A stretch of 64,000 nt of DNA from a virus (taxonomy: Duplodnaviria; Heunggongvirae; Uroviricota; Caudoviricetes), in IMG/VR virus record IMGVR_UViG_3300029705_000054, positions 1,687 through 65,686 of that record. The stretch is one strand, 5' to 3'. Numbering within the stretch: position 1 is the first letter of the stretch; each line of letters starts with the position of its first letter. Shown here one piece after another: positions 19,999 through 28,656 of this stretch. The translations under genes were made by a program, and so were the position numbers. The notes beneath the pieces are model-generated. The model was given only the letters and a program-made list of their open reading frames with translations. It was not told where the DNA came from and did no database searches.

Positions 19999-20073
19999 GC
20001 CCGTTTAGCTCAGCGGAAGAGCACTGGATTTCTAATCCATTGGTCAGGAGTTCAAATCTCTTAACGGGTGCCA
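19999..20073 (+). tRNA. tRNA-Arg (anticodon TCT), CCA encoded
   Basis: Cloverleaf folded by hand: acceptor gcccgtt/aacgggt, anticodon loop tttctaa, T-loop ttcaaat. Confidence 0.6.
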
Positions 20074-20375
20074 TAAGGGACATTATTTCTGCCCTGCTTA
20101 GCGGTGAAAGATGACGTTAGACATTTAGCGAAAAAGCGTGGTTTTGAAGATGGGTATTTGCTCCTTATAAATAACCCATTCGGGAGGTCGTGGTGCCCGA
20201 AAGGCTAGCTGGCTAACCACAACTCAAGAAAGTTCCACGCTTGGCTTGGCGGCGAAAGATGGCGGTATGTATGATTACCGAAAAAGTATCATATAGGGCG
20301 ATAGGCGGACTTAAGGCGCCTATAGTGGAGGCAAGTCCCACTGTACAAGGTTTAGCCAACCAACTTGCATTTTAT

Positions 20376-20449
20376 GCTGGATTAGTTTAGCGGAAGAACG
20401 GGGCGCTACGGACGCCCAGACAAGGGTTCAACTCCTTTATCCAGTGCCA
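20376..20449 (+). tRNA. tRNA-Arg (anticodon ACG), CCA encoded
   Basis: Anticodon stem gggcg/cgccc with loop ctacgga. T-loop ttcaact. Confidence 0.55.
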
Positions 20450-20524
20450 ATACACAACCGACGGACAAGGCTTTGGCGTATGAAACAGGACGGTGGGACG
20501 CGAGTGGTCGAGATTGTGTTATAT

Positions 20525-20606
20525 GCGCATATGGCGGAATGGCAGACGCGGCTGGCTCAAACCCAGTTGAGTAATCGTGTGGGTTCAAGTCCCACTTTGC
20601 GCACCA
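20525..20606 (+). tRNA. tRNA-Leu (anticodon CAA), type II
   Basis: Loop ctcaaac, long variable arm, T-arm gtggg ttcaagt cccac, CCA. One mismatch in the acceptor stem. Confidence 0.45.
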
Positions 20607-20630
20607 TTAAATATAAAAGGAGAGAGGGAA

Positions 20631-20786
20631 ATGAGTAAAAGACCAATGGAGATTAAAGAGACTCCTAAGATGCGTAAAGAGAGAGTGCGTAATTCACCCT
20701 CTCTGCATACAAGAGTAGTCGAAAGCAAGAAGAAATATAATCGCAAGAAAGATAAGGCGCAAACGCGTCGCTCTATGGAAGATTAG
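20631..20786 (+). CDS. small basic protein (51 aa)
   Basis: RBS aaaggagagagggaaATG. Lys/Arg-rich. Confidence 0.4.
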   Translation: MSKRPMEIKETPKMRKERVRNSPSLHTRVVESKKKYNRKKDKAQTRRSMED

Positions 20787-20865
20787 AGCAAAAAATTTTT
20801 TCAAGATTAATTAAACTATTAAAAGTAATTTTAATATAATCATACCAAATCAAGGAGGAGTAGCT

Positions 20866-21108
20866 ATGAGTTACAAAAGAAACGCAGAAAACCAAAGAAG
20901 ACTTAAGCGCAGATATCAGCCTAGATATTGTAATCCTATCTACTTCGATGATGAAAAAGGTAGATGGATACATTATGAACTTCGTGGTAGAAAATATCGT
21001 GCCTTTTGTAAAAAGCAAGCTAATAGGCGCGCCCATCGTTCTAATGAGTATTTCCAAGCAAAAGGTAAATATAAGCGCATTTCTAATTTTTGGAATGAGC
21101 TTATTTAA
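20866..21108 (+). CDS. small basic protein (80 aa)
   Basis: RBS aaggaggagtagctATG. Arg/Lys-rich. Confidence 0.45.
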   Translation: MSYKRNAENQRRLKRRYQPRYCNPIYFDDEKGRWIHYELRGRKYRAFCKKQANRRAHRSNEYFQAKGKYKRISNFWNELI

Positions 21109-21112
21109 TATA

Positions 21113-21187
21113 CGGGGATAGTTCAATAGGCTAGAATATCGGTCTCCAAAACCGAGGATATGGGTTCAAACCCCACACCCGTGCCAA
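21113..21187 (+). tRNA. tRNA-Trp (anticodon CCA)
   Basis: Anticodon stem tcggt/accga with loop ctccaaa. CCA end. The acceptor stem has 2 mismatches. Confidence 0.5.
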
Positions 21188-21297
21188 TTTTAACAAGCAC
21201 CTTAAGATTCTTATAGTAAAGCATAGCCGCCTCTATTGATTTTTATTAAATTTTATGATATAATATATATGTAATAAAGGAGAGGAAATAAAGGCTA

Positions 21298-21519
21298 ATG
21301 AAAGTAAGGATTCGTCTTGATACTTTATCTGATGTTCACGCTTTTGTTAAGATTGCAAGCTCTTGTGCCTGCGGTGATGTTTATATTACTGACGGTAATG
21401 GGCTGAAGGTAAGCGCCAAATCAATACTTGGTGCGCTTTATGCTCTTGAGTTTGATGAACTTTGGTGTGAGTCAGAAGAAGATATCTATCATAATATAAA
21501 AGATTTTATTGTGATTTGA
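21298..21519 (+). CDS. HPr-like phosphocarrier-fold protein (73 aa)
   Basis: DVHAFVKIASSCACGDVYITDGNGLKVSAKSILGALYALEF resembles HPr (GLHARPA...KVNAKSIMGVM). Class-B promoter. Confidence 0.4.
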   Translation: MKVRIRLDTLSDVHAFVKIASSCACGDVYITDGNGLKVSAKSILGALYALEFDELWCESEEDIYHNIKDFIVI

Positions 21520-21933
21520 AAATCTTAATTGATTTTTTCAAAAAAATATGATATAATATATATGTAAAGAAAAGAAAAAGCCTTTCTTTTGAGTGAGCGG
21601 AGTTACGCAGTCCCGTGAAAGTCCGAAAGACAACTGCGTTTGGATATAGTCGCAAGAACCGCATGAGGTTTGCGTGACATTGGGAGAATACTCAACTCCT
21701 ATGAAAAAATGAGCGTAGCTTCCTCGTGACGGAGCTGACGTTGTGGGTGTGAAAGGGAGAACCCTCCGCATAGGAGTGACATTTACTTTTGTTTTCCAAC
21801 CTACAAGCGTATTGTAAAAGTGGGCGAATAAAGGCGTGAACACGGTTTAAGCAATACCCAAAGGCGTCACAACTATAAAAAATGCTTGTGTACACACGCG
21901 GTGAGGATAACCGCGATACCAACCTCTTTATAT

Positions 21934-22006
21934 GGGACCTTGGCGAAGCTGGTAACGCATCAGAATGATAATCTGACGATCATCCGTTCGAGTCGGATAA
22001 GTCCCT
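21934..22006 (+). tRNA. tRNA-Ile (anticodon GAT)-like, no encoded CCA. It is embedded in a ~700-nt promoter-driven non-coding transcript
   Basis: Acceptor gggacct/aagtccc, loop atgataa, T-arm atccg ttcgagt cggat. Confidence 0.4.
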
Positions 22007-22226
22007 CTTAATGGAAAGTGGTTTACGGTAATCCATTTAATAATTAAACCGTGACAGGATCCAGCCGTTGATGGAGTGACGGCTATGGGGTTTATGAATG
22101 TTGATATGGCGCAACACGTTTACTCTTAGCGGTTGCGAGGAAGAAGAGAACAAAGAGCGTTGCTCGGAACAGTACGATAAACGCGAGAGCCACCTGAGGG
22201 GCTTGAAGTGAAACCTTAGGGTCGAC

Positions 22227-22303
22227 GGGGGCGTCGTCTAAAAGGTTAGTGACACTAGCCCTTCAAGCTGGAGATCCGGGTTCGAGTCCCGGCGTCCCTA
22301 CCA
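22227..22303 (+). tRNA. tRNA-Glu (anticodon TTC) with a 12-nt D-loop and C33
   Basis: Acceptor gggggcg/cgtccct (2 G-U pairs), loop ccttcaa, T-arm ccggg ttcgagt cccgg, CCA. Confidence 0.45.
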
Positions 22304-22307
22304 ATAT

Positions 22308-22384
22308 GCTCGGTTCTTCTAATCGGCTAGGAAGCCCGCCTCTCAAGCTGGCAATACTGGGTTCAAGTCCCGTACCGAGTACCA
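22308..22384 (+). tRNA. tRNA-Glu (anticodon CTC)-like, tandem to the previous gene
   Basis: Acceptor gctcggt/accgagt, loop ctctcaa, CCA. One mismatch in each of the anticodon and T stems. Confidence 0.4.
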
Positions 22385-22979
22385 TATTAATTTTCCTATC
22401 GCAGTTTAATTGGTTGCGCAAAGCGGTTATCAAGAGTTAAAGATGAAGGTGGTTTTATAATCAGCGGATTAACCTTTTGAGAAAGGAGCGCCACTCCTGT
22501 CCGAGTGGGAGGATAAATAAAAATCAGGCGCACAGTGCCAACTTGGCTGTGCTTAATGGGAAGTTGGGATAAAGCTCCGAGAGTGCTGTAAACTCTCACT
22601 TTATATCGCGGATGGGCATAGTGCTCACCAGAGCCTCATAAGCTCAGGGTGATCGGGGCAGTACCGATATCCGCACCCAATGCTAAAAGGCGGCATAGAG
22701 CAAAAAGCCTTTCTCTACCTATTCGGAGACTTTGGAAATAGGTAAGCATATAAGATTATGTACGGTTGTCAGTTCGTCGGATTGAAGAAGAACTGGGCGG
22801 CAGGGTGGATGTCGTTCTTAAACAATGAGGTTGCTCACCTCATTCCATCCTATACCTAAAACAAAAAAGACGTTCTCTGGGGAAGATACGAGGACGCAAT
22901 ATGCCAAAAGGGTCGGCGCCCATTGACGCCTCATACGCGTCGAGTGCTTGGATCGACACCAAGTTTTGGCACCATATAT

Positions 22980-23070
22980 GCAGGTCTGGCGAAGAGGTAA
23001 ACGCACCCGCGATTGGAACGGCGGGAAACATACTCCATTGTCGTAGGTTCGAATCCTACGACCTGCTCCA
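22980..23070 (+). tRNA. tRNA-like gene (91 nt) with a perfect 7-bp acceptor stem, T-arm and CCA but an irregular anticodon arm
   Basis: gcaggtc..gtagg ttcgaat cctac gacctgc t cca. The region between the D-arm and T-arm does not form a canonical 5-7-5 anticodon arm. Confidence 0.35.
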
Positions 23071-23326
23071 CCTCCGAGAGCAAATGTGGGAGGCTAAATG
23101 GATGTGCAGTTGACTGACTGAAAGTCACTTTATATGGACGATTAAACCGTTAAGATAGGCGGGCTAGACTGTAAATCTAGCGCCATTGTGGCTCGAGTGG
23201 GTTTGATTCCCTCATCGCCCACCAATACCACTTTAATCAATTACTATGAAACTTCTTTGATTTTTATAAAAATTTATGATATAATAAATATGTAAAATGA
23301 AAGAGAGGAAAAAAGAAAAATGATAT

Positions 23327-23518
23327 GCCGAGATGGTGGAATTGGCAGACACCCTGGACTTGTTGGCTTAATTTAAGAGGTAAAATAGGAAGCCTAGTAT
23401 TGATATATCGAACAAGACCGAGAACAGCATCCAAATGTAAGTTCGAATCTTGCAGTCAGCACCAAAAATCCAGTGTTCAGAGATGAGCGTACGGGTTCGA
23501 GTCCCGTTCTCGGCACCA
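23327..23518 (+). tRNA. tRNA-Leu (anticodon TAA), type II, split after anticodon position 34 by a 103-nt tRNA-like insert. Exons are 23327..23361 and 23465..23518
   Basis: 5' exon: gccgaga tg gtg gaattggcaga cac c ctgga ctt. 3' exon: aaaa tccag, long variable arm, acggg ttcgagt cccgt tctcggc a cca. The two halves are fully complementary and give the anticodon loop cttaaaa. Confidence 0.5.
23362..23464 (+). ncRNA. tRNA-like insert inside tRNA-Leu(TAA): acceptor-like stem gttggct/agtcagc, T-arm-like aag ttcgaat ctt, ends ..agcacca
   Basis: Seen directly in the sequence. It occupies the anticodon loop of the outer tRNA. Confidence 0.45.
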
Positions 23519-23691
23519 ATAACCGACGAAAGCCAGACTCGGTATATAAGTTAGTGGCGCTTCAAGTGGTAGGTTGTGTGTAAACCGATTAAGAAGAGAA
23601 AACGCAAGTGGAACACACATTAGTATTAGGTGCCTACTCGGGGAATACAGGTGGTAGGATAAATGTGACGACCCAGCCAGCCTAATATTAT

Positions 23692-23780
23692 AGAGGATTG
23701 GGTGAGCAGGCTTAAACCAGTGGTTTGCTAAACCACCGAGGGTAATACCTCCACTAGTTCGAATCTAGTATCCTCTGCCA
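23692..23780 (+). tRNA. tRNA-Ser (anticodon GCT), type II
   Basis: Acceptor agaggat/atcctct, loop ttgctaa, long variable arm, T-arm actag ttcgaat ctagt, CCA. Confidence 0.6.
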
Positions 23781-25082
23781 GCTCTCGTAACAACAGCGAG
23801 GCTAAAGGTGAAAATCCCAAAGGTTGAAATGTTGTAGGTAAAGTTTTCCACCGCCGTATCAAAGAGTGGCGTTTGTGCACAGCGAATAGTGCAATCGTAG
23901 CAGTCTTTCAAGGCGCCATATGGGACTGCGCAGAGTACGATAACCTCTGCATTATATGGAGGATGATGCCGGACGGCAAAGCAGCGACGGGAATTCCAAA
24001 GTAGGTTCGACTCCTACAGGCTCCACCAAGGGGTGATTCGTTTGCCACACGAATCCGTAAAACCAAGCGTTAATGGTTATTTACAATAGGTGCCACGAAG
24101 CCGAAGATGGAGGTCGACAGCCACTGCAGGATGTGCCAAGGTTTGAAGAAATGCGTCCAATGAAGTCTTAGGAAGTTTAGAAGCAGCTGTGGTTAACTGG
24201 AGTTAGATGAATAGCCTATTTTGTAATATTTATGACGACCTCTGGAGGGGATGTTCCCCTCATATTAAGGAGTGAGTAGAGAGCGAGGCGGCAGACGCTA
24301 TATAAACAGTGCTGGTTATACTCGGTGAGACTTATATCCGAAAGGCAGCGGTGGGCCAAACATCCGCTGGAGTTTCGCCTCCAAGATGAAGTGCGAGATT
24401 TATAAAGATAGCTTAGTAATAGCGCAGGTTTATCCAACAAGGCTATGAAAGGCGCGGGCCCAGCTTCCCGCATCTAAAAGCTGGAATATAGAGAATGTAG
24501 TGTAACAGTAACACACCGCATTTGGGATGCGGAGTAGCGGGGCAGCACCGACATTTTCTGCCATTTTAAATCAACGCCTTGATGCTGCCAACAAGCATTA
24601 CTCGGCGCCTCGTAAAACATCAGAGTTTGGAGAGTGATTCTCTTGTTGGATATAAAAACTCTCCCTCTCTTTCCTATGGGGAATGGGACTGCATGGAGTG
24701 GTCGTCTGCTTTGCAAGCAGAAGTTCAGATGAGATCGTTACTCATATTCTCCACCATTAAGTTTGAAGGTAGCTTAGTAAAAACCTATCAATCTATTGTG
24801 TTTACTCGTAGCAAAGAAAAATGAGTTGCAGAGAGCTTTTGTCCTAACCACCATTAGGCAAAAGCAAACTCCAAAGGTTTTCATTGATTTTTATTAAAAA
24901 ATATGATATAATATTTATGTAATAAAGATAAGAAAGGAAATAAAGCAAAATGATAAATAGAGAACTTGCAATACTTAATCGTATTAGTATTCTTTAGCGC
25001 GATGCCGCTAATGGAAATATAATCAATAAACTCAAGCGAAAATATAGAGCTATTCAAAAAGCTAACTAAGTAAATAATTATA

Positions 25083-25236
25083 TGAGCCAGTAGCTCAGAT
25101 GGAAGAGCACGTGACTTGTTTGAGTATGTTTAATTGGTAAAGTCTGGGGCTTAGTCGGCTTTAGGTTGTTAGTTCGAATCTAACCTCAAGCACCATTAAT
25201 CACGGGGTCGCGAGTTCGAATCTCGCTTGGCTCACC
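25083..25236 (+). tRNA. tRNA-Lys (anticodon TTT) split after position 34 by a 78-nt tRNA-like insert. Exons are 25083..25116 and 25195..25236
   Basis: 5' exon: gagccag t a gctc agatggaa gagc a cgtga ctt. 3' exon: ttaa tcacg gggtc gcgag ttcgaat ctcgc ttggctc a cca. The spliced loop is cttttaa. Confidence 0.55.
25117..25194 (+). ncRNA. tRNA-like insert inside tRNA-Lys(TTT): 7-bp acceptor stem gtttgag/ctcaagc, T-arm gttag ttcgaat ctaac, discriminator A and CCA
   Basis: Seen directly in the sequence. The interior lacks a clean D-arm and anticodon arm. Confidence 0.45.
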
Positions 25237-25924
25237 ATAAGAAGGAGTAATATGAATAGTAAAGATAAAGGCAATATTGGTGAGGCAGTTGTACTTGCTG
25301 AATTTGTTAAAAATAACATTTAGGTAGCAATCCCTTTTGGAGATAATGCTCGTTATGATTTGATAGCAGAGTTTAATGGAAAATTAAATCGTATTCAAGT
25401 AAAGTATTGTAATCAACAAATTACTGAAAATAATTCTATTGCCTGTCCTTGTGCAAGCAGTACAAACCATACTACCAATAAACATTATAGCACTTACGAG
25501 AATGACATAGATTATTTTTGTTTTTATATCGTAGAATGGAATGAAATTCTTATTCTGCCAATTGAAGAAATTGGTACTAAAAAAGTAATTACTTTTAGAC
25601 AAGATCCTCCAAAAAATAATCAAACTAAAGGGATAAATTTGGTAGAAAATTATCGATTAATTGATTTTCTAAAAAATTTATGATATAATATATATGTAAG
25701 AAATAAAGCGATGCAATATAAACTCCTGACCTGAGTTTCCATCAACAAATTCTCGATTCAAAATTGCCCGAAAGGGGTCGCTAATCGTAATAACATTAAC
25801 TCCGTAGTGAAACGGTAACTTAGGTTGTTCACAAATCTTGTACAAGATTAAAGGAGGAAGGTTGAGTAATCGCCTTTGGAATAGTGCAAATCACTCCTAT
25901 TAGTTAATGTAATTAAGATATTAT

Positions 25925-25996
25925 TGGGGTGTAGCCAAGTGGCAAGGCATCAGACTTTGACTCTGACACCCGCTGGTTCAAATCCAGCCACCCCAG
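25925..25996 (+). tRNA. tRNA-Gln (anticodon TTG) with a U1-A72 pair and G73. No encoded CCA
   Basis: tggggtg..tcaga ctttgac tctga..gctgg ttcaaat ccagc cacccca g. Preceded by a class-B promoter and a ~230-nt structured leader. Confidence 0.6.
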
Positions 25997-26081
25997 GTCG
26001 CACTTAATCAACTACCTCCACGTGGTGTGCGATGGGTTAAGCTAAAAGTTGATAATAAGTATAAAAAGGAGCTATTTAAAT

Positions 26082-26723
26082 ATGGCATACATTTATCAAA
26101 TTACCAATGATATAAATGGTAAAATATACATTGGTAAAACAGAAAAGTCTATAGAAAAACGTTGGAAAGAGCATTGTAGTGATTATCAAAAGGAAAGATG
26201 CAAGGATCGTCCTTTATATCGAGCAATAAACAAATATGGAATTGAACATTTTCATATAGAATTGCTTGAAGAAACAGATAATCCTTCTGAAAGAGAAATC
26301 TTTTGGATTGAGAAAAAACAATCATTTAAAAATGGTTATAATGCTACTTTAGGAGGAGATGGAAAACGTTATTTAGATTATGATTTAATCTATTCCACTT
26401 ATGAAGTTTTGCAAAATGCAACAGAAGTGGCAAAAAAATTAAATATTTCAGTAGATAGCGTATATATTGTTATTCATCAACGAGGAGGCGTATTAAAAAC
26501 TGCTCAAACAATTAATAAAGAGTTGTTTAGCAAAGCTGTAAAAATGTTTGATAAAAAAACTAATGAATATATTCAAAGTTTTTCTTCTTTAACAGATGCT
26601 TCTCAGTATTTAATAGATAATAATTTAACATCTTCAGTGAAAGTAAAAGGTATTTCAACGCACATTCGAGAGTGTGCAAATGGAATTAGAAAATCTGCTT
26701 ATGGTTTCATTTGGAAATGGTAG
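26082..26723 (+). CDS. GIY-YIG homing endonuclease (no internal TAG)
   Basis: MAYIYQITNDINGKIYIGKTEKSIEKRWKEH and a C-terminal NUMOD-like region. Confidence 0.65.
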   Translation: MAYIYQITNDINGKIYIGKTEKSIEKRWKEHCSDYQKERCKDRPLYRAINKYGIEHFHIELLEETDNPSEREIFWIEKKQSFKNGYNATLGGDGKRYLDYDLIYSTYEVLQNATEVAKKLNISVDSVYIVIHQRGGVLKTAQTINKELFSKAVKMFDKKTNEYIQSFSSLTDASQYLIDNNLTSSVKVKGISTHIRECANGIRKSAYGFIWKW

Positions 26724-26904
26724 GCTGATTAAAATATAACCGTTAACACGGATTAGTGACTAAACTACTCCCGACTCAGATCAAGGTGCGGTTCACCGCG
26801 ATATGGTAACGAGGTATGGAGCAATAGCGGAAAACGGTATATAAAGAAGCGAAGTAAGTCACCTTCAGTTGGCGCTACTGAAGTAAACCTCACAGGCGCA
26901 ATAT

Positions 26905-26979
26905 GGGAGCTTAGCTCAGAGGCAGAGCGCAACCCTGTTAAGGTTGATGTCGAGATATCGTAATTCTCAGTTCCCTCCA
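26905..26979 (+). tRNA. tRNA-Asn (anticodon GTT)-like with an atypical T-loop (atcgtaa)
   Basis: gggagct ta gctc..caacc ctgttaa ggttg..agttccc t cca. Confidence 0.45.
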
Positions 26980-27049
26980 AGTACGAGACTTTTCATGGTT
27001 TTCCTCCCTTCAGCGGGTTGGTTGTTACCGCAAAATCAACAACCTTTAT

Positions 27050-27125
27050 GCCGACTTAGCCGAATGGCATAGGCGTTAGTCTTAGGAACTAAAATTTCTG
27101 GGTTCGAATCCCAGAGTCGGTACCA
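27050..27125 (+). tRNA. tRNA with anticodon TAG (reads CUA/Leu) but a class-I fold with a short variable arm
   Basis: gccgact ta gcc gaatggcata ggc g ttagt cttagga actaa aattt ctggg ttcgaat cccag agtcggt a cca. Confidence 0.5.
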
Positions 27126-27642
27126 TGGAGCTACTTCCAAGCCTTGAGCAAATGTAGATGACTTCTGGAGCATTCAGGATTATAAGAGTGCTAACCACGA
27201 GCTGACCTCGCAGCACGAGCACAAAAGTGTCAGGGTTTTTATAACAGGGATTGATAAATGCCAGTGTTATAATATCCTTAATATTGATGAAAAGTTTATC
27301 TATAAGTGAATAACCTTGATTTCATTGAGTATTTTGAGGCGAATACTGCTGGATAATCCAGAGTAGGCTTGAGAGAGCGCCCACGAAAATAAACTGAAAT
27401 CAAATGCCGAGAAAATCGTGGATTTCGTCCACCCGAAGAGTAGCTACGGTGAAATAAGTAGGGTGCGATTGGCGCCGAGGATGTGGCGAGGTTCTGGTAG
27501 ACCAATTAAAAATGTCTAAGCCAGATGTAGATTGAAAGATGAAACGGTTATTTACTCGAATTGAGGATGGTAAGCAAATACCACGCCCAAAAGAAAACAA
27601 TGAGCGGTTGGCTGACCTAAAGCTGTCACCTCTTTAATATAT

Positions 27643-27727
27643 GCACCTGTCGCATAGCGGTCGATTGCACGCGCCTTGTAAGCGCGAGACTCTGTCCACA
27701 TTGGTCCAAATCCAATCAGGTGCTCCA
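27643..27727 (+). tRNA. tRNA-Thr (anticodon TGT)-like with a 13-nt variable region and TCCAAAT T-loop
   Basis: gcacctg..cgcgc cttgtaa gcgcg..attgg tccaaat ccaat caggtgc t cca. Confidence 0.4.
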
Positions 27728-28256
27728 TATGGCGTCAAGAAGAAAGCCTTCTCGTGGCGACGCTGTGAGCCTTAAAAGCGACTAATTTCTTCAATTATAG
27801 TCTCACCTCCTTTCTGAGACAAGGCGGCGCACGCCTGTAAGTCGTCGACATTTGAAGATGCAAAAGTGTTGCGGAGAGCATACTCTGACAAACCTCTGTG
27901 GCTGGGTCATAAGCTCGGGTAACTGACACATTCCGCCCTTGGAAATCCGTTAGTGTCGCTAAACGAGGACTACGGGAAAGGTCTTCGTTTCTTCCCATTT
28001 TCACTTGATATGCAGAACTGTGCGAAGGTCGCACCTTCGGAAAAGATCAATAGGAGCAGGAATCAGGTGATCACTGCGCAAATATCAAGTTAATCTATAA
28101 TAATGCTTAAGAGAGCCTCTGCCCCAAACACAGCGCTCTGTCAAAAGAAGCCGTTTGCACGGTCTCGCAAGAGATAGTACTTGGTAGGGTTGGGAAAAGT
28201 GTGGATACAATTAACTACTCCACAGGAAATTCAATTGACAATCTTAAGCGCCCTCT

Positions 28257-28331
28257 GCAGGTGTCGTATAACGGCTATTACTTCTGCCTTCCAAGCAGAA
28301 GATCTGGGTTCAACTCCCAGTACTTGCTCCA
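28257..28331 (+). tRNA. tRNA-Gly (anticodon TCC)
   Basis: gcaggtg..tctgc cttccaa gcaga agat ctggg ttcaact cccag tacttgc t cca. Confidence 0.55.
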
Positions 28332-28421
28332 TATAGGCTGGCTCCTACAGCCTATCATTTTTCTACCCTTCCTTTCTGCTTACCCCCGCGATGTACGTTG
28401 TCGCGGGGGCTTTGATAAAAT

Positions 28422-28496
28422 GGCGCGCTAGCCAAATGGTTAAGGCGCAGGCCTGCAAAGCCTTGATTCCGCGTTCGAGTCGCGGGCGCGCCTCCA
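28422..28496 (+). tRNA. tRNA-Cys (anticodon GCA)
   Basis: ggcgcgc ta gcc..caggc ctgcaaa gcctt..ccgcg ttcgagt cgcgg gcgcgcc t cca. Confidence 0.6.
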
Positions 28497-28656
28497 ACCA
28501 GAGTCACCTATGAAGGTGGCTTTTTATTTTATATATCTGTTCGGAACGCAGAGGGTCGACTTATAGAATCTAAAAGTGGTTTTAGATTTTTTCGTTGAAA
28601 AACTGTAAAATTTATATTATAATTTATTAAAAGAATATGTAGAGGAAAATAAAAAT

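What the first reader, a model, noticed from the sequence alone, without database searches (positions are those of the whole stretch)
19999..28500. 8.5-kb protein-free island of tRNAs and structured spacers, including non-canonical tRNAs and orphan tRNA halves
At least 18 tRNA or tRNA-like genes are packed here, several under class-B promoters. Some are oddities. There are two tandem Glu-like tRNAs with C33 and a 12-nt D-loop. There is a class-I-shaped tRNA with anticodon UAG (27050). A Thr(UGU)-like tRNA has a 13-nt variable region and a TCCAAAT T-loop (27643). An Asn-like tRNA has an ATCGTAA T-loop (26905). A 91-nt tRNA-like gene has a perfect acceptor stem and T-arm but no canonical anticodon arm (22980). 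A D-armless hairpin tRNA-like element with a GUA loop lies at about 23157..23224. An orphan T-arm+acceptor+CCA 3' half at about 23985..24029 (aggttcgactcctacaggctccacca) has no matching 5' half nearby. Long spacers are promoter-driven but unexplained, for example 20074..20375 and 21560..21930, with about 700 nt transcribed from the promoter at 21528. These spacers may hide further split or permuted tRNAs, tmRNA-like or other ncRNAs.
Basis: seen in the sequence. Interest (0 to 1): 0.6.

Follow-up and report, generated by a model that had tools for sequence, protein, structure and literature searches.

The report
Phage tRNA island with tRNA-like introns
This is the tRNA gene island of a ~135-kb stop-codon-recoding gut/rumen phage; it is not protein-free, most of its "odd" tRNAs and long spacers are conserved, and two of its tRNAs are split in the anticodon by small tRNA-shaped inserts, which also occur in at least two dozen other phage contigs and whose removal mechanism is unknown.

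Summary
The tRNA density is real. ARAGORN finds 17 tRNAs, and Rfam plus comparison with relatives raise this to 23 tRNA or tRNA-like genes.

The island is not protein-free. It holds three conserved small ORFs, one 39-aa ORF, a PD-(D/E)XK homing endonuclease with an in-frame TAG, and a GIY-YIG homing endonuclease.

No tmRNA, permuted tRNA or split tRNA was found. The "orphan 3' half" is a truncated tRNA-Ser(UGA) ortholog. The "D-armless hairpin" is part of a class-II tRNA-Tyr.

C33 in tRNA-Glu, the AUCGUAA T-loop in tRNA-Asn, the long-variable-arm tRNA-Thr, the short tRNA-Leu(UAG) and the 91-nt odd tRNA recur in related phages.

Main result: tRNA-Leu(UAA) and tRNA-Lys(UUU) are interrupted exactly between nt 34 and 35 by 103- and 78-nt tRNA-like inserts (acceptor and T-arm, ending ACCA). 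Relatives show filled and empty alleles. I found 22 distinct such inserts (47-103 nt) at 38 locus:gene places, some of them overlapping fetches of one contig. Similar "enigmatic" introns were noted in Lak megaphages in 2019.

Two minimal HDV-like (theta) ribozymes follow tRNA-Gln and tRNA-Thr. About 4 kb of spacers are conserved RNAs with compensatory pairing and unknown function.

The splicing route (RNase P, a 3' cut, then the phage RNA ligase) is inferred, not shown.

The parts
19999..20073 (+). tRNA-Arg(UCU)
   Evidence: ARAGORN; Rfam 65.5 bits
20074..20375 (+). Spacer RNA S1, upstream of tRNA-Arg(ACG); GNRA-rich
   Evidence: Aligned with 3 relatives at 67-73% identity. 19 of 67 predicted pairs show compensatory changes, against 2-4 for slid controls; alignment shown.
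20376..20449 (+). tRNA-Arg(ACG)
20525..20606 (+). tRNA-Leu(CAA)
20631..20786 (+). Conserved 51-aa basic ORF with a ribosome-binding site
   Evidence: tblastn matches in 11 relatives at 66-88% identity; no Pfam or PHROG family
20866..21108 (+). Conserved 80-aa basic ORF
   Evidence: tblastn, full length in 10 relatives
21111..21185 (+). tRNA-Trp(CCA)
21236..21264 (+). Promoter cassette, copy 1 (TTGATT-17-TATAAT with extended -10). Other copies at 21529-21557, 23257-23285, 24884-24912 and 25661-25689.
   Evidence: Promoter scan; repeat family D1; the same cassette recurs many times in relatives
21298..21519 (+). Conserved 73-aa ORF
   Evidence: tblastn in 9 relatives
21565..21933 (+). Spacer RNA S3, the leader from promoter 21529 to tRNA-Ile
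   Evidence: MFE z = -3.0. Alignable only with L022 and L008; 23 of 78 pairs compensatory, but one row is only 54% identical, so this is weak.
21934..22007 (+). tRNA-Ile(GAU), no encoded CCA
   Evidence: sequence
22060..22226 (+). Spacer RNA B1, always just upstream of tRNA-Glu(UUC)
   Evidence: 88% identical to L001 and conserved in 6-7 loci. Only 2 compensatory pairs were counted for B1 itself, 8 of 43 over the whole S4.
22227..22303 (+). tRNA-Glu(UUC) with C33
   Evidence: The CCUUCAA loop is shared by L022, L005 and L010, with covarying stems.
22308..22384 (+). tRNA-Glu(CUC)-like, weak anticodon stem
   Evidence: ARAGORN; Rfam 37.6 bits. Not orthologous in sequence to the Glu(CUC) of relatives.
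22488..22606 (+). Spacer RNA B2a, a three-hairpin element upstream of tRNA(CAU)
   Evidence: 9 sequences; 24 predicted pairs, 6 with compensatory changes
22607..22679 (+). Hidden tRNA(CAU). It has a C1xA72 mismatch like an initiator tRNA, a 5-bp D stem with a 3-nt loop, and a GGCAGUA T-loop.
   Evidence: Alignment with relatives. The only extra hit of an acceptor/T-arm scan. ARAGORN calls the L022, L004 and L006 orthologs Met(cat) at 69 nt.
22684..22902 (+). Spacer RNA S5b
   Evidence: 11 of 48 pairs compensatory in 3 sequences, against 1-4 for slid controls; z = -2.0
22903..22974 (+). tRNA-Met(CAU)
22980..23070 (+). 91-nt class-II-shaped tRNA with U73, a conserved variable region AUACUCCAYUA and an enlarged anticodon loop (AUUGGAA core, UGG)
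   Evidence: ARAGORN '???'; Rfam 45.3 bits. Identical loop in L022; positional orthologs in 8 relatives read UAG or UAAG.
23136..23224 (+). Class-II tRNA-Tyr(GUA)-like gene
   Evidence: ARAGORN at lowered threshold; Rfam tRNA-Sec model 34.8 bits. The L010 ortholog has a compensatory change in the variable arm.
23327..23361 (+). tRNA-Leu(UAA), 5' exon (nt 1-34)
   Evidence: Removing 23362-23464 gives a canonical 89-nt tRNA-Leu(UAA). ARAGORN with introns allowed finds it.
23362..23464 (+). 103-nt tRNA-like insert (acceptor, D and T arms, A73, CCA) between U34 and A35 of tRNA-Leu(UAA)
   Evidence: Covariation: 96% of cells paired, 11 of 16 pairs compensatory, 0 of 500 shuffles reach this. Rfam tRNA 34.8 bits.
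23465..23518 (+). tRNA-Leu(UAA), 3' exon (nt 35-76 plus CCA)
   Evidence: A compensatory change in the variable arm separates the two interrupted alleles, window and L022.
23522..23621 (+). Block C, a near-invariant 100-nt element that follows tRNA-Leu(UAA) in every relative where both are seen
   Evidence: Mostly 90-98% identical across loci whose neighbouring genes are 68-75% identical. L003 shows 2 compensatory pairs, GCCA/UGGC to ACCG/CGGU. MFE z = +0.5.
23692..23780 (+). tRNA-Ser(GCU)
23895..23957 (+). Spacer RNA B4, a two-hairpin element upstream of the Ser(UGA) position
   Evidence: 8 sequences; 99% of cells paired; 4 of 14 pairs compensatory
23958..24028 (+). It keeps the T-arm and CCA, has lost the anticodon and variable arms, and its acceptor stem is mismatched.
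   Evidence: Positional alignment with tRNA-Ser(UGA) of L001, L004, L005 and L006
24270..24489 (+). Spacer RNA B5, about 220 nt, lying upstream of tRNA-Pro(UGG) in the relatives checked
   Evidence: 9 sequences; 35 predicted pairs, 10 with compensatory changes. Found in 3 IMG/VR contigs of the same clade.
24490..24563 (+). tRNA-Pro(UGG)-like gene with no GG in the D-loop, a GGCAGCA T-loop and a weak T stem
   Evidence: Rfam 35.7 bits. Same variant in L009 and L022; canonical Pro(UGG) at this position in L018.
24678..24756 (+). tRNA-Ala(UGC)
24950..25069 (+). 39-aa ORF with one in-frame TAG
   Evidence: Sequence; tblastn to L022 (80%) and L010
25084..25117 (+). tRNA-Lys(UUU), 5' exon (nt 1-34)
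   Evidence: Removing 25118-25195 gives a canonical 76-nt tRNA-Lys(UUU). Rfam tRNA 50.1 bits across the whole gene.
25118..25195 (+). 78-nt tRNA-like insert between U34 and U35 of tRNA-Lys(UUU)
   Evidence: Rfam tRNA 31.4 bits. A 58-nt relative with the same acceptor stem sits at the same site in two IMG/VR contigs.
25196..25237 (+). tRNA-Lys(UUU), 3' exon
25252..25683 (+). Free-standing PD-(D/E)XK homing endonuclease (PF11645) with an in-frame TAG at codon 24
   Evidence: Pfam 115 bits, with the match running across the TAG. Absent from L022, whose tRNA-Lys is uninterrupted. Present after an uninterrupted tRNA-Lys in L005.
25924..25996 (+). tRNA-Gln(UUG), no encoded CCA
25997..26064 (+). Minimal HDV-like (theta-type) ribozyme that starts at the first base after the tRNA-Gln discriminator
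   Evidence: Rfam RF02682, 37 bits (gathering score 44); E = 1e-5 in the local search. P1 GUCGCAC/GUGCGAU, P2 AUCAAC/GUUGAU, P3 ACC/GGU, J4/2 GCUAAAA. L005 has a compensatory change in P1.
26082..26723 (+). Free-standing GIY-YIG plus NUMOD1 homing endonuclease
   Evidence: Pfam. The ribozyme and this gene move together: after tRNA-Gln here and in L005, after tRNA-Asn in L009.
26905..26979 (+). tRNA-Asn(GUU) with an AUCGUAA T-loop
   Evidence: The same kind of loop occurs in L022, L001 and L008, with changed T stems.
27050..27125 (+). tRNA-Leu(UAG), A73, short variable region
   Evidence: Orthologs have either a long (L022, L001) or a short (L018, L008, L009) variable arm.
27126..27642 (+). Spacer RNA S14, 517 nt
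   Evidence: 5 sequences at 69-75% identity; 14 of 108 pairs compensatory, against 1-4 for slid controls; z = -2.5
27643..27727 (+). tRNA-Thr(UGU) with a long variable region and a UCCAAAU T-loop
   Evidence: The L022 ortholog has the same length and a canonical T-loop.
27731..27792 (+). Candidate second HDV-like ribozyme, 3 nt after the CCA of tRNA-Thr
   Evidence: P1 GGCGUC/GACGCU, P2 GAAGAAA/UUUCUUC, P3 GCC/GGC, CUAA before the P2 3' strand. Weak Rfam CPEB3-ribozyme hit of 20 bits at 27719-27793. In L018, P3 is ACC/GGU, a compensatory change.
27728..28256 (+). Spacer RNA S15, about 520 nt, upstream of tRNA-Gly. It contains a hairpin at 27800-27820 whose loop is CCUCCUUUC, the anti-Shine-Dalgarno sequence.
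   Evidence: 4 sequences; 20 of 105 pairs compensatory, against 0-4 for slid controls; alignment. The hairpin is conserved with a covarying stem in L018, L022 and L025.
28257..28331 (+). tRNA-Gly(UCC)
28422..28496 (+). tRNA-Cys(GCA), followed by a terminator-like hairpin at 28500-28523

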